Part shown: one piece after another, positions 981-17,415 of the stretch
How the letters are laid out: every line of letters starts with the position of its first letter
Numbering within the stretch: position 1 is the first letter of the stretch
Origin: a virus
Lineage: Duplodnaviria; Caudoviricetes
IMG/VR virus record: IMGVR_UViG_3300037088_000377
Span: 1-63,879 of that record
Direction: 5' to 3' (one strand)
DNA length: 63,879 bases
The notes under the pieces: model-generated
What the model was told of the DNA's origin: nothing
The model's input: the letters and a program-made list of their open reading frames with translations, nothing else
Databases searched by the model: none
Translations under genes and position numbers: made by a program

Positions 981-1199
981 TTAACCCATGTTTACGAGCA
1001 TTTTCCAAGCCATCGTAGACAGCATCAAACGATGCTCTGTGGGGCGTAATCCAAATTCATTCGCCACATCTATGACCCATTGATTGACTTTTATCCAGTT
1101 GTAGCCAAACTTTTCAGCACCTCGTTGATGCAACTCTTCAAACACTCGACGTTCCTTCCCGCTGCGCTTCATAACCTTCAGTTCTTGTCGAGTCATCAC
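981..1199 (-). CDS. Hypothetical protein
   Basis: 72 aa; ATGA overlap with the kinase gene upstream. Confidence 0.6.
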   Translation of the reverse strand: MMTRQELKVMKRSGKERRVFEELHQRGAEKFGYNWIKVNQWVIDVANEFGLRPTEHRLMLSTMAWKMLVNMG

Positions 1200-1741
1200 T
1201 CACCCTTCCCTTCCGTGTAGAACACATCCTCCCTGCCGAATGGCCGCACGGTCTTCTCTTGTAGTCGCTTGAATTGGAGGTCGATAGCCTCTTTGGGGAC
1301 AACCTCCTTGCCGGTGCGCAGGGCGTTACGGCGCAAGCACTCTTCCTTGTCGGTGTTCATCACGGTAAGGCAAAACTTCACCCGTGCCCCACGGGCAATC
1401 TCTTCAAACTTCTGGCGGGTTCGGGAGACACAGTTGGTGTCGTCCACGATGACATTCAGACCCATCCCGAGGCACATACGGATGGCTTCCTCTTCCAGCT
1501 TACGGACCACGTCCTCTTTCGCATGGTTCCACGGGGAGTCGGCAAACAGCATAGCCCGAAGGGTATCACGGTTCAGCCGCACGGTCTTGCCAGCGTGCCT
1601 GTTGACCACGCTCTTGGCGATGGTGCTCTTGCCAGAGCCCGCAGGACCGACCATAACGGTGAGCGTGGGGGCATCCTCCCGCCCGTTGCTGTAGTCGAAG
1701 TACTGTTCCGTGAACGATGCCTTTTCCTTTGAGCTTTGCAT
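1196..1741 (-). CDS. Polynucleotide kinase-like P-loop kinase (T4 PseT kinase domain / AAA_33 type)
   Basis: Walker A GPAGSGKST, LNRDTLR, VIVDDTN and CLRRNALR lid. No phosphatase domain. Confidence 0.85.
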   Translation of the reverse strand: MQSSKEKASFTEQYFDYSNGREDAPTLTVMVGPAGSGKSTIAKSVVNRHAGKTVRLNRDTLRAMLFADSPWNHAKEDVVRKLEEEAIRMCLGMGLNVIVDDTNCVSRTRQKFEEIARGARVKFCLTVMNTDKEECLRRNALRTGKEVVPKEAIDLQFKRLQEKTVRPFGREDVFYTEGKGE

Positions 1742-2308: not shown

Positions 2309-2459
2309 ACTATCCTCCAGAGGGATGTGGCTCCTGTTATAAGGCACCACAATAGTATCAGACTCACCACTACGAGCAGGGGGAACGACAGGTCGTCCGC
2401 TGTGAGCATCAGGACCATCCACATCAGCAGAATGAATTCAGAATTGGGCGGTAGTATCG

Positions 2460-2882
2460 TCACTGGTAGTTCTCGTCCTGTATGATTCCGAACTTGTGGA
2501 AATAGCGTAACGGACGCCACTTATGGTCGTTCACGTAGAACCCCCACTTGTGATAGGGGCGACCGCAGAAGAGCAGCGTCCAAGCTCCCCCCTTGGGGAT
2601 TTCCAGGTAATGCCGCTTCAGTGCATCCGACTTCCATACCGACCCGGCCTTAACCTCAAAGGTTCCGTCTAGGGTGACGTTCTTGTAATGCCCTTTCAGG
2701 ATGATGGAGACGAAGTTCGAAGCATGGTCATGGAAGAAGCGCCGGTCGTCTGACCTCAGCCAGTGGTGGAGTCGGACGGAGAACCCGAAGATGATGAGCG
2801 TCCAACGATAGAGGTAAGGGCACTCGGGATGACCCATCGCCTCCTTCCATCGAATTTGGAAAATCTTGCCGAATGGCCCCAT
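2460..2882 (-). CDS. Cupin-fold phage protein
   Basis: RLHHWLRSDDRRFFHDHASNFVSIILKGHY...H...WTLLFCG matches the His pattern of phage cupin-like proteins. Confidence 0.65.
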   Translation of the reverse strand: MGPFGKIFQIRWKEAMGHPECPYLYRWTLIIFGFSVRLHHWLRSDDRRFFHDHASNFVSIILKGHYKNVTLDGTFEVKAGSVWKSDALKRHYLEIPKGGAWTLLFCGRPYHKWGFYVNDHKWRPLRYFHKFGIIQDENYQ

Positions 2883-2888
2883 ACATCC

Positions 2889-3167
2889 TTATCCACGGGA
2901 GCTTAGTCCCTTGTTCCACCATTCCCAGATGTCCTTGCCGTAGATGGTCATTAGGACTTCCTCGAACACAAAGTGGTCGAAATCTATGGTCCTACCCTTG
3001 GCAAGCTCCTCGATGCTTCCCACCACGAACCTCTTAAGCTTGTCCCAGTCGGGGTTGTCAAGCGGCTTGGGTGCTTGCTGTTGTTTCAGCTTCCGTGCTG
3101 CAATCTCCGCCTCCAAGGCCTCAGTGGTCAACTCCAAGAGAGCAGAGTTCAGTTTACTGTTTGCCAT
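2889..3167 (-). CDS. Hypothetical protein
   Basis: AAGGAG RBS; starts just downstream of the tRNA-like element. Confidence 0.65.
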   Translation of the reverse strand: MANSKLNSALLELTTEALEAEIAARKLKQQQAPKPLDNPDWDKLKRFVVGSIEELAKGRTIDFDHFVFEEVLMTIYGKDIWEWWNKGLSSRG

Positions 3168-3184
3168 GTATTTCTCCTTCAAAG

Positions 3185-3355
3185 TCAACGGAGAGGGACT
3201 CGAACCGCCCGACCTCTCTCAAGTAAATGAGAGCGCTCTTCAGTTAAACTCAGAGGTCGATGGCCATCGTGTTCCTCCGAGCCTAAAAGTCTCTCTAAAT
3301 CAAGGACGACGGCCATCGTCCTATAATTTAGAGAGCCCGCCTGAGCTATCCGTCG
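3185..3355 (-). ncRNA. tRNA-like RNA with a two-hairpin insertion of about 95 nt in the D-loop
   Basis: Acceptor CGACGGA/TCCGTTG plus A, then TA, D stem GCTC/GAGC, anticodon stem CTCTC/GAGAG with an 8-nt loop, variable loop AGGTC, T loop TTCGAGT. Hairpins at 3291-3335 and 3244-3286. No encoded CCA. Confidence 0.75.
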
Positions 3356-3932
3356 TAAACTTTCTTTTATTCCCAGGAACCCATTCAGCAAACAGTCCGA
3401 GTTCCCTAGCTTTACGCATTGCATCTGCGATGATAAGCCACGCTTTATAAGGCATTCCTCCGCGAACAAGATTACATCTTGTACAGCAGGGGATTACATT
3501 ACCTTTCAAGTGACCTTGTGCGTTATCTATTCGGTCTAAGCCAATATGTAAGTCATCTCGGGTTGCCCCACAGTACTGGCATCCTGTCGAAATCAAAGTT
3601 CTTACGTAATCTAGGTCAAGAACACAAGAAAATCCATGACGCTTATCCCACCTCCTGCAATCACTGATAACAAACCTTTCTTCGTTATTGTGCCTTCGGT
3701 TTTTTATAGTCTGGTTTCTTCGTTCATAGCCTGTTTCAGTCTTTCCCCACCGAGGCTTCCCATATCTACTATGTTTATTCCAGCAGGGGCGGCATAAAAA
3801 CCTGTAATACTTCTTCCCATTGCCTCCCCAGTGTGTGTGAAAATTACTGCCGTCCTCGGCTAACACTTTTCCACATTTTTTGCAGACATGTGGAAGTCTT
3901 ACGATTATTCCACCTACAATTTGACTTTTCAT
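3321..3932 (-). CDS. HNH-type (His-Me finger) homing endonuclease
   Basis: CKKC...CRPC Zn finger, then CQYCG...GLDRIDNAQGHLKGNVIPCCTRCN. The 3' end overlaps the tRNA-like element. Start codon uncertain. Confidence 0.8.
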   Translation of the reverse strand: MKSQIVGGIIVRLPHVCKKCGKVLAEDGSNFHTHWGGNGKKYYRFLCRPCWNKHSRYGKPRWGKTETGYERRNQTIKNRRHNNEERFVISDCRRWDKRHGFSCVLDLDYVRTLISTGCQYCGATRDDLHIGLDRIDNAQGHLKGNVIPCCTRCNLVRGGMPYKAWLIIADAMRKARELGLFAEWVPGNKRKFTTDSSGGLSKL

Positions 3933-4005
3933 ACTAAAGATATTGAAAGCCAAATTATTGGTCAGCGGGGTGTTTTGGTCAGGATACCCGCCGAAACTTG
4001 TTTGA

Positions 4006-4227
4006 TTATGCTTCATCCGCCTTCTTTTCAGTAGTACCGTGGCGCTCTTTCCGTAAGGCATACCGGAGAGCGTCGTCAACCGCTTGAGACAAAAGCTGAG
4101 CTTCCTCAATTAATGTGAGGTGGTGCGCCAGCGTCCAGTCAGTTAATAATCTTCCCAATTCGCCCTTGGCTTTCTGAACGAGGTTGAATCTTTCATGGAG
4201 CTTGGGAAGCGGACCAAGGTCTATCAT
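4006..4227 (-). CDS. Hypothetical protein
   Basis: AAGGAG RBS; 73 aa, in operon. Confidence 0.6.
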   Translation of the reverse strand: MIDLGPLPKLHERFNLVQKAKGELGRLLTDWTLAHHLTLIEEAQLLSQAVDDALRYALRKERHGTTEKKADEA

Positions 4228-4229
4228 AG

Positions 4230-4535
4230 TTACTCCTTAACGGTGGGCACAATCAAGCCAGCGGTGTCCCAACCAAGTTCTGTAAGCTTCCAGCCCGTGA
4301 TGCCATCCTGTGGTGACGGGGAACCCCGATAAAGCTTTTGGGTGATTAAGTTCTTATTGAATAAGGCACGGAAGGTGTCGTAGGACAAGCGCTTTCCGTC
4401 CATAATATAGTTGAGCTTAGCAGTCACTCGGTTTCCCAGTGAGCGGTAAGGGCTGTCCAAGGTAAGGTATTCGCACAAGTCTTCACCCTCGGAAAGCTTT
4501 TTCAGGACATGCTTTTGAGTTTTGGTTAACTTCAT
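4230..4535 (-). CDS. Hypothetical protein, possibly winged-helix
   Basis: MKLTKTQKHVLKKL...LFNKNLI...WKLTELG pattern. Confidence 0.55.
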   Translation of the reverse strand: MKLTKTQKHVLKKLSEGEDLCEYLTLDSPYRSLGNRVTAKLNYIMDGKRLSYDTFRALFNKNLITQKLYRGSPSPQDGITGWKLTELGWDTAGLIVPTVKE

Positions 4536-5065
4536 CACTTTCCTTTCCGGGACTTCTCCCATTGTTCTAATACCTTCTTTCGGATGCCTTTTGGCATCCT
4601 TTTTTTGTCGAAGAACATAATTCCAAAAGTGTGGTCCAACTCGTGGGAAGCACAGAAGGCGTCGTATCCGCTAAGTCGTACCGTCCAAGACTCACCCTTG
4701 AGCGGCTCTTGGTAGGTCAGATGGCATTCCGTCTGGCGGCTGACCATACCGTAGATATTGGGGAAGGACAAGCAGCCTTCCTGGTGGACTTGCCATTCGC
4801 CGAATGCCTCTACGGTGGGGTTGACGGCGATAATTTCTTCCCCATGATGGCCCCCCACCGACCGCCTCATAACAAAGAGCCTCTTCTCCAACCCGCATTG
4901 CGGAGCGGCGAGCCCTATGCCGTTCCCGTTTTTCATAGTCAATAACATCTGCTTGCCAAGGGTCTCTAGTCCTTCTCCAAATTCATCATCCTCCACTGGA
5001 GCACAGACGGTGGAAAGGATGGGGTCGTCCCAGATAGCGATTGTCAAAGGGGTTAACTCAGGCAA
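4535..5065 (-). CDS. def: Peptide deformylase
   Basis: All three PDF motifs: GIGLAAPQCG, EGCLS, HELDH. Probable TTG start after GGAGG. Confidence 0.92.
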   Translation of the reverse strand: MPELTPLTIAIWDDPILSTVCAPVEDDEFGEGLETLGKQMLLTMKNGNGIGLAAPQCGLEKRLFVMRRSVGGHHGEEIIAVNPTVEAFGEWQVHQEGCLSFPNIYGMVSRQTECHLTYQEPLKGESWTVRLSGYDAFCASHELDHTFGIMFFDKKRMPKGIRKKVLEQWEKSRKGK

Positions 5066-5537
5066 TTGGTCCTCCAGTAAGGCGCTCAACCTCTGACTTA
5101 TCAACGCCGTACCAGCCGACTCCGGCATAATAACGGTAGTATTCCTTTCCCGTTTTATGCTCTTCCTTGAACTCCACGATGGAGTAATCATCTTGGTTAG
5201 AACGGCTGGGATAGCTGTGGGCATCATAGTGCTCGACAAGGGTGCATGCCCGATTGGAAGAAGGACCAAATACATGTCCGAGACCAAACTTCTCCTCAAT
5301 GGCATCAGCGACCATCTCGGCTCCATTGGTGATGCTGCATCCCGGATTGTCTGCTATCTCTGTGACGATAAAGACTTTTCGGAGGTCCTGGTCGAAGTAG
5401 GCATCCAGATGGCAGGCGGCAATCTGCCGACCGTATCCTTTGTAGTTGAATCGCCCGGAAAACAGGCGGCTCATAGGTTCCTTGGCGGGAGTAATCTTGA
5501 GGTCTTCTAGGGTAATGGATTTCGGTGTAGTTTCCAT
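5058..5537 (-). CDS. Hypothetical protein
   Basis: 159 aa; preceded by the early-type promoter motif. Confidence 0.7.
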   Translation of the reverse strand: METTPKSITLEDLKITPAKEPMSRLFSGRFNYKGYGRQIAACHLDAYFDQDLRKVFIVTEIADNPGCSITNGAEMVADAIEEKFGLGHVFGPSSNRACTLVEHYDAHSYPSRSNQDDYSIVEFKEEHKTGKEYYRYYAGVGWYGVDKSEVERLTGGPIA

Positions 5538-15400: not shown

Positions 15401-17415
15401 AGAATGACATTGCTGACGACCGGAACATCATGGTAATCCGCAGAGCCAAGCATGCCGAAGGCGCTCCGTATCAATGCCTGAACTGCTTGAAGCAGCATAA
15501 CAATCCTGTTAGGTGTCCCAATTGTGGTAGCAGTGAGAAGAAGCGAATGGGGGTTGAGTATCCGAAGACCGCCGACACAGTGGACAACCCGGCGAACGAG
15601 AAGGGTGGAGTAGGCTACATTCACCCCAAGACCGACGCCGAGAAGGTGAACACCCGTGGGGAAGAGCCTGAGATGGCTCCCGACAAGAACCCCGGTGGGA
15701 GCAAGACCGGGACGGTATGGTTGAACGACAAGAACTTGAGACCTGCTATGTCCATGAACGACATCTTCGCTGAGACAAACCGTCTGTCCGCAAAAGAGCA
15801 GGGAGGAGTGGACTTGTCACACCACCGCAACCACGCCAGCCTCAAGACAGCAGACGCCCAGATGCACTGCCCACAGTGTCAGGGAACCGCCTGTAAGGCG
15901 AACCCCTCGGACCCGCAGTATGTGTGCCAGTGCGGGTGGAAGTCCGGCCAGCCGCTCCATACGATGAGTGAGGGAGAGAGGGAAAACGAACTCAGGACAC
16001 AGGAAAGGCTGCGGGGTTTCCGTCCGCATCGTGGCACCAAGACCGCCGCCGAGGTTGTGGCCGACCTCCTCGCCGACCCCACCGGGGAAGATAAGGGCAT
16101 GGTGGCATCCTTACAGAGCAGGAAGGCGGGCAACAAGCGTGAGGAAGACCTCCGCAAGAAGCGCTCCAGCGTGGCCGAGGAGTTCGGCGACATTTTTGCT
16201 GATGTTTTGCCCCGATATGGAAAGACCGCAGACCAGTCTGTCGAGCCGGACGTGGCACAGGCAAGGGGCGCAATCAGCGGTCCTGGCAAGAACGACCTTG
16301 CCAATACGCCGGAAGCAACCAACACCACTGATGCCCGTGACCTGGAGAAGCAGAAGCCCTCGCCGAACGCCGGGGGGGTGCCGAGGCTCTCATCTAAGAA
16401 AAGGGGTGACCATGATGTCCAGCCCGACATCGCCGCCGCACGGGAGAGGCTTGACCACGGTGCCAAGGCACAGCTTGCCGACAACCCGGAGGCTACACAG
16501 ACCGAGGATATTGGCAAGTTCGCAGGCAAGATGGCTGACCAGTCCGTCGAGCCAGATGTAGCCCAAGCCAAGGCGGCCATCGAAGGTCAGTCCAAGGCAC
16601 AGCTTGCCGACAACCCGGAGGCTACACAGACCACGGACATCCGTGAGCTTGAGAAGCAAGCGGCATATCCTGAAGCACAGCCTACTTCTGAGCAGGTGGA
16701 CGTGGAGGTCAAGGACGAGGGTTCACTAATCCTCCTGATTCCCAAAAACTCGGAGGCAAAGCAGTGGATGAACGATAATCTCGGGCTGGAAGAGTGGCAA
16801 TGGTACGGCGGCGGGGCAGCAATTGAGTACCGCTATGCTGATGACATCATTGAGGGGATGCAGAATGACGGACTGACTGTGACCCCGACCAAGCGCATCA
16901 TCCCCGAGGAGCATGACCTTACCCCAGAGGACGAGCAGCGACTCATCAGTAAAGGTATCGTAGCACCTCCCGGCAAGCGTGCCTGTACTCCATTGGGCGA
17001 CGAGCAGGATGAAGCAATCGACATCGGGGCGCTCATCGGTGACCTTGCCGACCTCGGTGCCAACCTGCCCAATATCGCAGGAGGGACTATGGATGCCCCA
17101 CAGGTCGGGGAGGGTGGAATAAATAACTTGTCAGCCAAGAAGGAATCCTCTCGGAAGCAGGCGGCTTCTCCCGAGGCACTGATGCTTGCCCAAGAGCTTA
17201 TTGACAACGAGGACCCGCTTGTCTTCGATATTTGTTCCAACCATGGACAGATATTCGGGAATGTGCGGCACATGCGGTGGCTGCTTGAGGCTGTGGCGGA
17301 GGAGGCTGAAGCTGAGCATATGGTAGGAGACGAGGAGTCTATCTCTCCTGAACGGGATAGATTAGCCCTTGACGTGGATCCTGATACTTACTTGCCACCG
17401 TTTGAGGAGTTCTAA
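12493..17415 (+). CDS. Large modular putative virion protein or polyprotein with about 20 K-x-A/G sites
   Basis: 1640 aa; AGGAGG RBS; recurring KTAD, KKAD, KQAD, KVAY and KTAY boundaries; duplicated modules; Zn fingers. Confidence 0.7.
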   Translation: MPVSGNSIAAKSFQSFAVNEDLLRKVTEATIKGEKKARSSGEVVSYEAFVTGFRQNISIGRIFIVPASICDKPKEFPIALLYGTVVKLLNLGEETATLIAINTGSEFDEEEDVKEHLKSLKEKAFTVDGKEVSLVVFAPAWSGIREYVTFQFVDDTYKLTNLLRHLVFSCYFNPAVSSGFDALLSKVDTWKIDVTDITPKLTYPALTESPLKKYPELMKTASKRDRIFLTAKTADAIAQNELEPEEMDVFQALGEAMGGALDHGTTTSGEVADKDYKTPAANAEVPRADDGTGPKAAKKVGYDKEDQYTPNVMPGTGMTDDEMLAQQHADIMSKATYTLSEDDLEWTPEYRNRAHGRIGSAKTAFIAEAPTNDSYVVKQNGQIKTGPCPMMECLDWIMEEQENGIGMSRGGYEIEEAGQESAAPVPITASMRKRAGIDPFLASYIESALWSSDDESTPQGGEPLDKNHSLLDIAPETLEVMKQDCERFRTENDQLLQQAIEQDNASWGIIARDFWLTRNRHGAGFWDGDYPATGDALTEAAHAFGEAALYIGDDGRIYQYEDAYSGPKVTGEDIGNTPGGFNNPDEEGLPGEIGGHIGSKKKADTEVVGTPYVVRINGHKTLKGELAEWCIKDESGKLHSAHATQKWANKIVSNYLLSKQADTADNPANQTRDGEGAMDPKTNKEKSVTANVVFPLKSPDKCAVCKADLPAGTKVINKSQWAVVCLPCVNRLRDQNKAPKLSAVAKVKKAMQLYVGIDPYTNERSISRLDRDSEGNRNFQPVSLEQLDEILPQATDFYVGYRSVDADTFRQQAQEIMLANTNKNKPVTAAIAKVAYVSHCKGHKNSKGELAEWCVKSHKDDHIISSHGSEAAAKKHLQDMHAHSGSTEKTAYKTHDADCTCGFCEKKGDIAEKDKEKNDLTKYGSAYGYSFDDDLTPEQRSCTQGCFIRGERECPASCTCSICHGSGRKQNDIADDRNIMVIRRAKHAEGAPYQCLNCLKQHNNPVRCPNCGSSEKKRMGVEYPKTADTVDNPANEKGGVGYIHPKTDAEKVNTRGEEPEMAPDKNPGGSKTGTVWLNDKNLRPAMSMNDIFAETNRLSAKEQGGVDLSHHRNHASLKTADAQMHCPQCQGTACKANPSDPQYVCQCGWKSGQPLHTMSEGERENELRTQERLRGFRPHRGTKTAAEVVADLLADPTGEDKGMVASLQSRKAGNKREEDLRKKRSSVAEEFGDIFADVLPRYGKTADQSVEPDVAQARGAISGPGKNDLANTPEATNTTDARDLEKQKPSPNAGGVPRLSSKKRGDHDVQPDIAAARERLDHGAKAQLADNPEATQTEDIGKFAGKMADQSVEPDVAQAKAAIEGQSKAQLADNPEATQTTDIRELEKQAAYPEAQPTSEQVDVEVKDEGSLILLIPKNSEAKQWMNDNLGLEEWQWYGGGAAIEYRYADDIIEGMQNDGLTVTPTKRIIPEEHDLTPEDEQRLISKGIVAPPGKRACTPLGDEQDEAIDIGALIGDLADLGANLPNIAGGTMDAPQVGEGGINNLSAKKESSRKQAASPEALMLAQELIDNEDPLVFDICSNHGQIFGNVRHMRWLLEAVAEEAEAEHMVGDEESISPERDRLALDVDPDTYLPPFEEF
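16463..16632 (+). repeat. 41-bp exact direct repeat inside the 1640-aa gene
   Basis: CCAAGGCACAGCTTGCCGACAACCCGGAGGCTACACAGACC at 16463-16503 and 16592-16632, encoding KAQLADNPEATQT. Confidence 0.9.

What the first reader, a model, noticed from the sequence alone, without database searches (positions are those of the whole stretch)
3185..3355. tRNA-shaped RNA with two GGCC-capped hairpins inserted in its D-loop
Seen: the minus strand forms a complete cloverleaf (7-bp acceptor CGACGGA/TCCGTTG, TA-GCTC...GAGC D stem, CTCTC/GAGAG, AGGTC, TTCGAGT). The D-loop holds two hairpins of similar size: 3291-3335 (about 20 bp) and 3244-3286 (13+4 bp). Their lower stems are unrelated in sequence, but both end in CGAT-GGCC-RTCG. 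G-U pairs form in the minus orientation, which points to RNA-level selection. The anticodon loop is 8 nt (ATTTACTT), the T stem has a bulge and CCA is not encoded, so ordinary decoding is unlikely. Inference: a tRNA-scaffolded ncRNA whose two palindromic loops could pair within or between molecules, as the hand-in-hand loops of phi29 pRNA do. It could instead be a decoy for anticodon nucleases, or a tRNA with a non-canonical D-loop intron. A polynucleotide kinase lies downstream on the same strand, and an HNH gene overlaps the 5' end.
Basis: partly seen in the sequence, partly recalled or inferred. Interest (0 to 1): 0.88.

Follow-up and report, generated by a model that had tools for sequence, protein, structure and literature searches.

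The report
Expanded tRNA-Val-like phage RNA gene
This is a real, conserved phage gene for a tRNA-valine-like RNA whose D-loop carries two long hairpins tipped with the self-pairing sequence GGCC; it belongs to a family I could not find described, and it may be a tRNA-shaped RNA that sticks to copies of itself.

Summary
The minus strand 3185-3355 is a tRNA cloverleaf with a 104-nt D-loop made of two hairpins, each tipped by GGCC, and an 8-nt anticodon loop. Standard finders miss it. It is not chance or a dead tRNA. Five lineages of related jumbo-phage contigs carry the same design at the same place, with different hairpin sequences, compensatory changes and GGCC kept at the tips. It belongs to a family of at least 35 distinct tRNA-Val-like genes. 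All have C1:G72, A73 and A35-C36, but only 16 of 36 have U33. 32 are expanded in the D-loop or just 5' of the anticodon. They lie beside a conserved viral cupin gene, and in some lineages near PNK/phosphatase and RNA ligase genes. A 99%-complete relative also has 60 normal tRNAs, three of them tRNA-Val, so ordinary decoding is unlikely. Across the family, 37 of 62 hairpin tips hold a self-complementary hexamer or longer, against 10% in shuffles. That points to loop-loop pairing. The function is inferred; no RNA data exist. Three cultured phages carry unannotated expanded tRNA-like genes beside their cupin gene, one of them Val-like.

The parts
3185..3355 (-). Whole tRNA-Val-like RNA gene (positions 1-72 = 3355-3186; discriminator A73 = 3185)
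   Evidence: Sequence; fold; ARAGORN -i and deletion scan; homologs
3349..3355 (-). Acceptor stem, 5' strand CGACGGA (C1)
   Evidence: Pairs with 3186-3192. Pairs 3-70 and 7-66 show G-C to A-U double changes against homologs
3343..3346 (-). D stem, 5' strand GCTC, preceded by T8 A9 (3348-3347)
   Evidence: nearly invariant in the family
3239..3342 (-). 104-nt D-loop: AGGCGG (G18 G19 equivalents), two hairpins, then CTGAA (A21 equivalent)
   Evidence: z -6.58. Four lineages have a 103-104-nt D-loop (win, L003, L024, L029); L026/L034 have 121 nt
3291..3335 (-). Hairpin 1, about 20 bp with 2 G-U pairs; apical GGCC at 3311-3314
   Evidence: GGCC lies in the hairpin 1 tip in 5 of 5 type-A lineages
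3244..3286 (-). Hairpin 2, 13+4 bp with G-U pairs; apical GGCC at 3262-3265 inside the perfect 12-nt palindrome CGATGGCCATCG
   Evidence: GGCC lies in the hairpin 2 tip in 3 of 5 type-A lineages
3235..3238 (-). D stem, 3' strand GAGC
3216..3233 (-). Anticodon arm CTCTC-ATTTACTT-GAGAG: 8-nt loop, read as one extra A plus TTTACTT with T33, TAC, T37
   Evidence: The stem covaries with homologs (CCCTC/GAGGG, CATCC/GGGTG). A35-C36 is invariant in the family set
3211..3215 (-). Variable loop AGGTC (G45 equivalent)
3193..3210 (-). T arm GGGCGG-TTCGAGT-CCCTC, with one extra C or a C.C mismatch
   Evidence: The same 6-on-5 T stem is seen in L029, L034, L010, L066, L041 and L078
3186..3192 (-). Acceptor stem, 3' strand TCCGTTG (G72)
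3321..4109 (-). HNH / endonuclease VII-like ORF whose last 35 nt run into the RNA gene; context only, not part of the element
   Evidence: PHROG hits. No homolog in any of 95 related loci or in G001
2889..3167 (-). 92-aa ORF with a Shine-Dalgarno motif, starting 17 nt after A73; syntenic in the L003-L009 lineages
2460..2882 (-). Conserved viral cupin ('cysteine dioxygenase' in PHROGs), the constant neighbour of the RNA family
1196..1741 (-). Polynucleotide kinase, kinase domain only. Relatives have kinase plus HAD phosphatase, followed by an Rnl1-like RNA ligase

Best explanation
It is a phage gene for a stable RNA of about 171 nt derived from tRNA-Val. It keeps the parts that make an L-shaped tRNA that could be recognised as valine-specific: a 7-bp acceptor stem with C1:G72, A73, the D stem, the G18-G19 and A21 equivalents, AGGTC with G45, the T loop, and A35-C36. 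It is not an ordinary decoder. D-loop position 20 is replaced by two 17-20-bp hairpins that would project from the elbow, and the anticodon loop has 8 nt. How it most likely works: (1) it is transcribed with the surrounding minus-strand operon and cut out by tRNA-processing enzymes (inferred); (2) the tRNA body gives stability and serves as a handle for tRNA-binding proteins such as ValRS, repair enzymes or nucleases (inferred from the conserved identity nucleotides); (3) the two GGCC tips pair with GGCC tips of other copies, or with each other, by loop-loop kissing, so the RNA forms dimers or larger assemblies (inferred from conserved self-complementary tips across the family); (4) it acts together with the neighbouring cupin and, in relatives, with the PNK/phosphatase and RNA ligase genes, in a tRNA-centred phage-host process whose nature is not known. 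Shown: the structure, its conservation, the family, the synteny and the palindromic tips. Not shown: expression, processing, aminoacylation and self-association.
For: The architecture is conserved while the sequence is not. L003/L004/L022, L024, L029/L030 and L026/L034 have the same acceptor/D/anticodon/T framework, a 103-121-nt D-loop with two hairpins, and an ATTTACAT or ATTACAT loop. RNAalifold on 6 type-A sequences predicts 45 pairs, 16 of them with compensatory double changes. Sense-strand z-scores of the D-loop inserts are -6.6, -4.0, -3.3, -3.0 and +0.2, against -3.3, -0.2, -2.8, -1.8 and -1.5 for antisense. Between L003 and L024, 13 substitution events at paired positions keep the pair and 4 break it. 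Between L003 and L005, 3 of 3 keep it. Family: of 46 distinct parsed tRNA-like sequences, 36 have A35-C36. Of those, 35 have C1:G72, 36 have A73, 15 encode CCA, only 16 have U33, and 32 are expanded. A35, C36, A73, G20 and G45 are the E. coli valine identity set (PMC9976931, passages read). A 99%-complete relative (G001) has 60 canonical tRNAs, including Val-GAC, Val-CAC and Val-TAC, far from the element. Self-complementary tips: 37 of 62 tips have a Watson-Crick palindrome of 6 nt or more centred in the loop, against 203 of 1946 in shuffles. For stems of 6 bp or more the figures are 23 of 38, against 70 of 1554 in native random segments. In L038/L041/L044 the loops GTTCGAAA and TCTAGA are invariant, while 20 of 47 predicted pairs show compensatory changes. 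GGCC is under-represented in the window (117 seen, 316 expected), yet it sits at both tips. Synteny: 50 of 95 cupin loci have a strictly parsed element, 48 of them within 570 nt, on either side of the cupin gene. The order PDF - element - cupin - PNKP - Rnl1 holds in type-A lineages. A cultured Paraglaciecola phage has RNA ligase - phosphatase - element - cupin.
Against: No RNA evidence exists. All 18 sequencing runs that hold the region are DNA. Palindromic tips are strand-symmetric, so they fit DNA-level palindromes as well as RNA kissing. The 4-nt GGCC loops here are small for a kissing complex unless the closing U.G or U-A pairs open. One lineage (L026/L034) has a D-loop insert with no excess stability (z +0.16), and its antisense strand folds better. 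One lineage (L005-L009, L023) has replaced the T arm and the 3' acceptor strand with unrelated sequence that still closes a 6-bp stem. That argues against a strict need for the tRNA L-shape. My family parse required canonical stems, so the 99.6% pairing it reports is partly circular. The 95 loci are not independent, because some are the same contig in two collections. The cupin is a generic metal cupin with no known RNA link. In Caulobacter and Brevundimonas phages the expanded tRNA-like genes next to the cupin carry GAA rather than NAC, so valine identity is not general. The window itself has lost the phosphatase domain and shows no RNA ligase in its 64 kb.
Confidence: 0.5

Rival explanations
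1. It is a decoy or preferred substrate in the conflict over tRNA cleavage. The RNA mimics tRNA-Val for a host anticodon nuclease or another tRNA-targeting defence, soaks it up, and may be resealed by the phage PNK/phosphatase and RNA ligase. This overlaps with the best explanation as one possible role.
For: In two distant clades the element lies in one block with healing-and-sealing genes: PNKP plus an Rnl1-like ligase in type-A lineages, and RNA ligase plus phosphatase in the Paraglaciecola phage. All variation in the family sits in the 5' half of the anticodon loop or in the D-loop, while positions 34-38 stay fixed. Phage tRNAs are proposed to evade host tRNases through anticodon-loop changes (PMC10264068, abstract read). 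Jumbo phages pair tRNAs with RNA ligases and PNK-HAD enzymes (PMC7824862, passages read).
Against: I recall no valine-specific anticodon nuclease, and my searches surfaced none. PNKP homologs were found only beside type-A elements and in L013, not in the 4-kb flanks of L014-L021. This idea does not explain the palindromic hairpin tips.
Confidence: 0.2
2. The hairpins are intron-like inserts that are removed after transcription, for example by RNase III or an unknown endonuclease. The ends are then healed and sealed by the neighbouring PNK/phosphatase and RNA ligase to give a tRNA-Val of about 80 nt. This would be protein-catalysed tRNA splicing in a phage.
For: Removing the two hairpins would leave D-loops of normal size in L003 and L029 (sequence). 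The inserts sit at only two positions in the family: D-loop position 20, or between positions 31 and 32. Kinase, phosphatase and Rnl1-like ligase genes are linked. ARAGORN calls a tRNA once the insert is deleted.
Against: No group I intron or ribozyme family matches any insert. At 34-160 nt they are too small for group I introns. By inspection the exon-intron junctions cannot form a bulge-helix-bulge. In 20 of 36 members excision cannot restore U33, and no junction rule gives a canonical 7-nt loop. G001 already has three normal tRNA-Val genes. After excision the window copy would still have an 8-nt loop with U37. No RNA data exist.
Confidence: 0.12
3. It is a working tRNA-Val(UAC) isoacceptor that tolerates a large D-loop expansion. 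With its 8-nt loop (UUAC) it may read a four-base codon or shift the frame.
For: Type-A loops keep U33 and TAC. L026/L034 have a fully canonical 7-nt loop, ATTACAT. The acceptor stem, A73, the T loop and G18-G19 are intact. CCA is encoded in 4 type-A lineages.
Against: The 8-nt loop is conserved in 4 of 5 type-A lineages, and the window copy has U37. Across the family U33 is present in only 16 of 36, and most members carry 31-160 nt next to the anticodon. G001 has a separate canonical tRNA-Val(UAC). Two 20-bp helices at the elbow would probably clash with ribosome contacts; this is my inference and was not tested.
Confidence: 0.1
4. It is a decaying tRNA-Val pseudogene that has been invaded by DNA palindromes, either from snap-back replication errors or from a small selfish element. 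No RNA function exists.
For: The hairpin tips are palindromes, as the centres of DNA inverted repeats must be. The same roughly 40-nt hairpin module occurs in two adjacent tRNA-like genes at different positions in L049/L050 (86-90% identity). A homing-type HNH gene sits next to the window copy. One lineage lost its T arm.
Against: The gene is kept next to the cupin across cupin identities from 91% down to 55%, with every tRNA core stem intact and covarying. The stems hold many G-U pairs and are more stable in the sense strand in 4 of 5 type-A lineages. The palindromic loops stay fixed while the stems next to them change. No copies of any insert lie outside these genes in the window, in G001 or in the 95 loci.
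Confidence: 0.08

Closest known systems
Canonical (phage-encoded) tRNA-Val
   Same: 7-bp acceptor stem, A73, D stem GCTC/GAGC, G18-G19, AGGTC variable loop, TTCGAGT T loop and a TAC anticodon. It is the positional equivalent of normal or near-normal tRNA-Val genes beside the cupin in L011/L012/L036, L068 and L093.
   Different: 104-nt D-loop, 8-nt anticodon loop with U37, a mismatch or bulge in the T stem, and C1:G72. Rfam RF00005 and default ARAGORN do not detect it. A relative has a full normal tRNA set in addition.
Valylatable tRNA-like structure of turnip yellow mosaic virus (TLS-Val)
   Same: A viral RNA that keeps valine identity nucleotides (A35, C36, discriminator) and does not act in decoding (PMC9976931, passages read).
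   Different: TLS-Val is the pseudoknotted 3' end of a plant RNA virus genome. This element is a separate gene in a DNA phage with a true acceptor stem and large hairpin inserts. Valylation was not tested here.
   Same: Hairpin loops whose sequences can pair between molecules. Many family members have 8-nt loops that hold a 6-nt self-complementary core, as the DIS does.
   Different: pRNA loops are complementary to each other, not self-complementary, and pRNA is not tRNA-shaped. No Rfam pRNA match was found. The loops in the window are only 4 nt.
GOLLD and ROOL RNAs of phages
   Same: Phage or prophage RNAs of unknown function, often near tRNA islands and sometimes with a tRNA inside them. They form homo-oligomers through kissing loops (PMC12286853, passages read).
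   Different: They are 500-800 nt or more, with their own conserved folds. No Rfam match to either was found in the window or the loci. Here the tRNA is the scaffold itself.
YrlA (bacterial Y RNA-like) tRNA mimics
   Same: A non-coding RNA with a tRNA-like module, linked to RNA repair and quality-control genes in bacteria and some phages (PMC7824862, passage read).
   Different: In YrlA the ends lie in the Ro-binding stem and the tRNA-like part is permuted (recalled). There is no YrlA match in the window. The only hit is a chance-level one, E 0.25, across two tandem elements in CcrPW.
Engineered 'tRNA scaffold' for expressing structured RNAs (recalled; papers seen only as a search listing)
   Same: A tRNA body carries a foreign structured insert and gives it processing and stability.
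   Different: The engineered version replaces the anticodon arm. This is a natural gene whose inserts lie in the D-loop or 5' of a retained anticodon.

Membership tests
tRNA (Rfam RF00005 / ARAGORN) | Detected by the family model at its gathering score, or by ARAGORN with default settings | tested here: not met
   0 Rfam matches in the window. No tRNA match even at E<=10 in 3100-3450. ARAGORN by default finds 0 genes.
tRNA (Rfam RF00005 / ARAGORN) | Cloverleaf with a 7-bp acceptor stem, D stem, 5-bp anticodon stem and T arm with a TTCRA loop | tested here: met
   ARAGORN calls a tRNA in 133 of 500 in-silico insert deletions.
tRNA (Rfam RF00005 / ARAGORN) | 7-nt anticodon loop with U33 and a purine at position 37; D-loop of about 7-11 nt | tested here: not met
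   8-nt loop ATTTACTT with T at position 37; 104-nt D-loop.
tRNA gene with a group I intron | Intron of about 200 nt or more in the anticodon loop that matches the group I intron model | tested here: not met
   The insert is in the D-loop and is two simple hairpins of about 90 nt. No Rfam intron match.
Archaeal-type tRNA intron | Bulge-helix-bulge motif at the exon-intron junctions | tested here: inconclusive
   By inspection the flanks (GG / CTGAA-GAGC) cannot form it. No dedicated tool was run. The peptide deformylase gene suggests a bacterial host, because deformylation of new proteins is a bacterial trait (recalled).
tmRNA | tRNA-like domain plus a tag reading frame, detected by ARAGORN -m | tested here: not met
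YrlA / Y RNA-like (RF02553) | Match to the family model | tested here: not met
GOLLD / ROOL | Match to the family models | tested here: not met
Dispersed palindromic repeat (MITE / REP-like) | Several copies of the unit scattered in the genome | tested here: not met
   The motif occurs only at these 2 sites in the window. No insert has a copy outside the family genes in the window, in G001 (317 kb) or in 95 loci. The one exception of kind is a module shared by two adjacent tRNA-like genes in L049/L050.
Expanded tRNA-Val-like family defined here | C1:G72, A73, TA-GCTC D arm, A35-C36 two nt before the 3' anticodon-stem strand, T arm, and a position beside the viral cupin gene | tested here: met
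   The window copy lies 304 nt from the cupin stop-to-start side (3186 against 2882).
Valylatable tRNA mimic | Aminoacylation by ValRS | not testable with these tools
   Only the identity nucleotides can be read (A35, C36, A73, G45 present; position 20 replaced by the insert)..
Kissing-loop self-associating RNA | Loop-loop pairing between molecules | not testable with these tools
   Only the self-complementary tips and their conservation can be shown.

The most novel reading that the evidence does not exclude
These phages encode a family of tRNA-scaffolded RNAs that self-assemble. Each tRNA-like body carries mostly two, sometimes one or three, hairpins tipped with a self-complementary 4-8-nt motif. 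Copies would link tip to tip into dimers, rings or chains, as a small tRNA-based cousin of the ROOL/GOLLD assemblies. The assembly would work with the conserved cupin and RNA healing-and-sealing enzymes, possibly as a multivalent, valine-identity tRNA mimic.
Probability: 0.3. Interest if true: 0.9.

Novelty: new variant of a known kind. Interest (0 to 1): 0.8.

Why it matters
tRNA genes in phages are usually treated as plain decoders. Annotation tools drop anything that breaks the cloverleaf rules. In every genome looked at here, including three cultured phages, the expanded elements went uncalled by default ARAGORN, and the isolates' records annotate nothing there. If the RNA is expressed, it shows that a tRNA body can carry 100-nt structured payloads at two defined sites in nature. 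It also adds a compact, sequence-simple candidate to the very short list of natural RNAs thought to self-associate. Its constant pairing with one viral cupin and, in some lineages, with kinase/phosphatase and ligase genes gives a concrete module to test in the current work on tRNA-targeting defences. Cultured hosts exist (Caulobacter, Brevundimonas, Paraglaciecola), so the question can be tested directly.

Tried and rejected
DNA similarity of window 2900-3700 to 50,697 phage records found no match.

Scans of the viral collection gave little. The double GGCC-palindrome motif returned one unrelated repetitive stretch. The 21-nt T-arm/acceptor string returned none. The 92-aa ORF and the PNK each returned no confirmed relatives.

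Only 2 hits had a paired stem and a T loop, and both are the known G001 and G002 contigs. No host prophage copy was found, but the genome scan was incomplete.

Sequencing runs: no RNA holder is listed. All 18 runs are DNA or unknown, mostly peat metagenomes. Laying 4 DNA runs showed identical sequence where covered (X7 across the whole stretch, X9 over 3186-3736). There were no variants, no joints and no insert-less form. X12 and X14 did not cover the element.

The promoter and terminator scan of 2400-4700 gave nothing above the shuffle level near the element.

Cupin: no Pfam or NCBIfam hit and no PDB sequence hit. The AlphaFold model (pLDDT 87.5) matches only generic metal cupins, TM-score about 0.5-0.6. 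The protein atlas returned only viral hypothetical clusters. I therefore claim no RNA-related activity for it.

An ungapped positional alignment of the four 103-104-nt D-loops is out of register: 15-25 of 35-40 pairs transfer. I therefore used per-sequence folds, close-pair substitution counts and RNAalifold instead. I did not build a covariance model or run R-scape.

I considered reading the ARAGORN -i call 'tRNA-Val(aac) with an 81-nt intron' at face value. I rejected it because it pairs part of hairpin 1 as an anticodon stem.

Eight literature searches found no description of phage tRNA genes with D-loop or 31/32 inserts. Tables of odd tRNAs in huge-phage papers could exist that I could not see.

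Full report
THE OBSERVATION

On the minus strand, 3355-3185 reads as follows. CGACGGA-TA-GCTC-AGGCGG opens the molecule, followed by hairpin 1, hairpin 2 and CTGAA. Then come GAGC, G, CTCTC-ATTTACTT-GAGAG, AGGTC, GGGCGG-TTCGAGT-CCCTC, TCCGTTG and A.

This is a full cloverleaf with a 104-nt D-loop. The RNA folds at -75.0 kcal/mol (z -4.98), against -61.5 for the other strand. The D-loop alone has z -6.58 in sense and -3.31 in antisense. The fold contains 7 G-U pairs among 40.

Both hairpins end in CGAT-GGCC-RTCG. That motif occurs nowhere else in the 63,879 bases, and chance expects 0.61 strand-matches against the 4 seen.

Default ARAGORN and Rfam find nothing. ARAGORN with introns allowed reports the same ends but through a forced fold. 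After in-silico removal of the insert, 133 of 500 deletion variants are called a tRNA with the same 5' end. The description is therefore correct.

CONTEXT

The window is a viral contig estimated at 35% complete. The genes around the element all lie on the minus strand, in this order:

- peptide deformylase (4535-5326)
- a 110-aa ORF
- an HNH/endonuclease VII-like ORF (3321-4109), whose last 35 nt run into the RNA gene
- the element
- a 92-aa ORF with a Shine-Dalgarno motif 17 nt downstream
- a 140-aa cupin that PHROGs labels 'cysteine dioxygenase' (2460-2882)
- a 134-aa ORF
- a polynucleotide kinase (1196-1741)

No DNA relative exists among 50,697 deposited phage records.

HOMOLOGS

I used the cupin as a probe. 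It returned 19 viral loci and 76 metagenome loci. Four further lineages carry the same architecture as the window: L003/L004/L022, L024, L029/L030 and L026/L034. I call this type A.

All five type-A lineages, the window included, share these features:

- the same acceptor, D, anticodon and T framework
- a D-loop of 103-121 nt that opens with A-N3-GG and closes with A before GAGC
- two adjacent hairpins in the D-loop
- an anticodon loop ATTTAC(A/T)T, or the canonical 7-nt ATTACAT in L026/L034

The hairpin stems differ in sequence between lineages, except that L003 and L024 keep 81% identity over a 63-nt stretch of the inserts. RNAalifold on six type-A sequences predicts 45 pairs, 16 with compensatory double changes; these include acceptor pairs 3-70 and 7-66 and two anticodon-stem pairs.

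Sense-strand z-scores of the inserts are -6.6, -4.0, -3.3, -3.0 and +0.2. The antisense strand is weaker in four of the five. Between L003 and L024, 13 substitution events at paired positions keep the pair and 4 break it. Between L003 and L005, 3 of 3 keep it.

GGCC lies in the tip of hairpin 1 in 5 of 5 lineages and of hairpin 2 in 3 of 5. L003 has GACC in hairpin 2.

One more lineage (L005-L009, L023) has the same 5' two-thirds but an unrelated 3' part. That part still closes a 6-bp terminal stem.

A WIDER FAMILY

A finder anchored on the acceptor stem, D stem, anticodon stem and T arm parsed 46 distinct tRNA-like sequences in these loci. Of these, 36 have A-C at the positions that correspond to 35-36.

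Of those 36:

- 35 have C1:G72; the exception is an ordinary tRNA-Val(GAC).
- 36 have A73.
- 15 encode CCA.
- Position 34 is any base.
- Position 37 is A in 28.
- U33 is present in only 16.
- 32 are expanded.

The expansions are of three kinds. Type A has the D-loop insert. L010/L027 have a 34-36-nt D-loop hairpin plus a 31-nt anticodon loop. Type B has a normal D arm with 43-160 nt inserted between position 31 and the retained 32-38 segment. Even the unexpanded members have odd loops: AGAACTT, ATGTACAT and AATGTACAT.

A35, C36, A73, G20 and G45 are the experimentally defined valine identity set of E. coli (PMC9976931, passages read). The family keeps all of these except G20.

Sixteen of the 21 core stem pairs show double changes. 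My parse demanded canonical stems, however, so the pairing percentage itself is circular.

The Rfam tRNA model, aligned locally, does span four of the type-B members end to end at 32-52 bits.

NOT NEEDED FOR DECODING

G001 is the 317-kb, 99%-complete contig that holds L003. It has 60 canonical tRNAs in four arrays, including Val-GAC, Val-CAC and Val-TAC. The type-A element sits alone about 22 kb from the nearest array, and it is the only intron-type ARAGORN call in that genome.

SYNTENY

Of the 95 cupin loci, 50 have a strictly parsed element. In 48 of those it lies within 570 nt of the cupin gene, upstream in most and downstream in some. About 20 more loci show the 5' signature at that place. 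The loci are partly redundant.

In type-A lineages the order is deformylase - element - (92-aa ORF) - cupin - 134-aa ORF - PNKP (kinase plus HAD phosphatase) - 137-aa ORF - Rnl1-like RNA ligase.

The window differs in two ways. An HNH gene with no homolog in any relative has been inserted next to the element. The kinase has also lost its phosphatase domain, and no ligase lies in the 64 kb.

The cupin is a well-folded generic metal cupin with no informative relative.

THE INSERTS

Inserts of different lineages are unrelated in sequence. None has a copy outside these genes in the window, in G001 or in the loci. There is one exception of kind. In L049/L050 the D-loop insert of a neighbouring tRNA(GGA)-like gene and the anticodon-side insert of the Val-like gene share a hairpin of about 40 nt at 86-90% identity. 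No ribozyme or intron family matches any insert.

The hairpin tips are self-complementary. Of 62 tips in 30 distinct inserts, 37 have a Watson-Crick palindrome of 6 nt or more centred in the loop. In mononucleotide shuffles the figure is 203 of 1946. With stems of 6 bp or more it is 23 of 38, against 70 of 1554 in random native segments of the window and G001. Fisher's test gives p = 2e-20, but the sequences are not independent.

The motifs include GGCC, GTTAAC, TTCGAA, TCTAGA, TGATCA, TGCGCA, TTGCAA, TACGTA and AGTACT. They often form a 6-nt core inside an 8-nt loop.

In the trio L038/L041/L044 the loops GTTCGAAA and TCTAGA are invariant, while 20 of 47 predicted pairs carry compensatory changes. 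GGCC is under-represented in the window, with 117 seen against 316 expected.

INTERPRETATION

The conserved parts are those that define an L-shaped tRNA of valine identity. The variable parts are those that the ribosome needs. I therefore read the RNA as a tRNA mimic, not a decoder.

Palindromic tips that stay fixed over covarying, G-U-rich stems fit a selected RNA-RNA contact best: loop-loop kissing between copies.

The tips fit DNA palindromes equally well on symmetry grounds alone, and nothing was measured. The 4-nt loops of the window copy are small for kissing.

The block of cupin, kinase/phosphatase and ligase genes recurs in a cultured Paraglaciecola phage whose cupin is only 44% identical. 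There the order is RNA ligase - phosphatase - small ORF - an unannotated 127-nt Val-like element with an AGTACT tip - cupin. This ties the RNA to RNA healing and sealing. It keeps two rivals alive: a nuclease decoy, and protein-catalysed removal of the insert.

Excision cannot restore a normal anticodon loop in most members. That weighs against splicing as the general rule.

Caulobacter phage CcrPW and Brevundimonas phage Bajun each have two tandem, unannotated tRNA-like genes of 250-280 nt upstream of their cupin. These carry GAA anticodon segments. The association is therefore with expanded tRNA-like genes in general, and valine identity is not universal.

COMPARISON WITH WHAT IS KNOWN

The element is not a member of any Rfam family. 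It resembles several known RNAs in part:

- a tRNA, in its core
- TYMV TLS-Val, in keeping valine marks without decoding
- GOLLD and ROOL, as a phage RNA linked to tRNA loci that may self-associate (PMC12286853, passages read)
- short RNAs recently shown to form assemblies (bioRxiv 10.64898/2026.07.01.735769, abstract read)
- the engineered tRNA scaffold (recalled)

Phage tRNAs with altered anticodon loops have been proposed to evade host tRNases (PMC10264068, abstract read). Jumbo phages link tRNAs with ligases and PNK-HAD enzymes (PMC7824862, passages read).

Eight full-text searches found no report of such expanded phage tRNA genes. Supplementary files and many journals were out of reach.

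VERDICT

The feature is real, conserved and, as far as I could search, undescribed. I am about 85% sure that it is a selected tRNA-Val-derived RNA gene with D-loop hairpin modules. I am far less sure how it works. I score it a new variant of a known kind (tRNA-derived non-coding RNAs), interest 0.8.

Noticed in passing
window, whole; also G001 (L098-L113): GATC is almost absent: 8 seen against 218 expected in the window, and 4 against 1128 in G001. CTAG and GGCC are also depleted. This suggests strong avoidance of GATC-specific restriction.
   Followed up: partly
window 3321-4109 (-): The HNH / endonuclease VII-like ORF has no homolog in any of the 95 related loci or in G001. It is inserted between the deformylase block and the RNA gene, and its reading frame ends inside hairpin 1. 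It looks like a free-standing homing endonuclease next to a tRNA-like gene.
   Followed up: partly
window 2460-2882 (-) and L003-L097: A 140-aa viral cupin, highly conserved (H-H-W, S-D-D, H-D-H and H-K-W-G-F motifs), is the constant neighbour of the expanded tRNA-like genes, on either side of them. Its function is unknown, and databases call it 'cysteine dioxygenase'.
   Followed up: partly
window 1196-1741 (-): The polynucleotide kinase here has the kinase domain only. Relatives have kinase plus HAD phosphatase (373 aa), followed by an Rnl1-like RNA ligase.
   Followed up: partly
L049 1702-1824 and L050 1613-1733: A second kind of expanded tRNA-like gene (T1:A72, loop ATGGAAG, anticodon GGA) has a 60-62-nt D-loop insert. 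It lies directly upstream of the Val-like gene and shares a hairpin module with it.
   Followed up: partly
L270 1412-1691 and 1700-1949 (Caulobacter phage CcrPW); L271 1398-1671 and 1695-1954 (Brevundimonas phage Bajun): Two tandem, unannotated tRNA-like genes of 250-280 nt lie upstream of the cupin gene. They have normal D and T arms, encoded CCA, and 173-200 nt inserted before a retained T-GAA-GA (Phe-like) loop segment. No Rfam intron match was found.
   Followed up: partly
L021 4801-4875 and 5886-5959; L080 2884-2959; L090; L091 2999-3073: ARAGORN calls tRNAs with anticodon CTA (labelled 'Pyl'). These are amber-suppressor-type tRNAs in some relatives, which hints at stop-codon reassignment in those phages.
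   Followed up: no
L070 2026-2205: A HEARO RNA (HNH endonuclease-associated RNA and ORF, RF02033) matches at 68 bits, cut off by the locus end, directly after the cupin gene.
   Followed up: no
L016/L017 87-1121 (-): ARAGORN -i calls a tRNA-Asn with a 936-nt insert at position 37. Rfam gave no group I intron match at gathering score. I did not examine it further.
   Followed up: no
L005-L009, L023 (about 3493-3690 in L005): This variant of the type-A element replaces the T arm and 3' acceptor strand with two small unrelated hairpins, and the ends still pair over 6 bp. The sequence is identical in six contigs.
   Followed up: partly
window 16236-16325 (-): At a lowered ARAGORN score threshold (-ps90) a 90-nt 'tRNA-Gly(gcc)' is called. 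I did not examine it.
   Followed up: no
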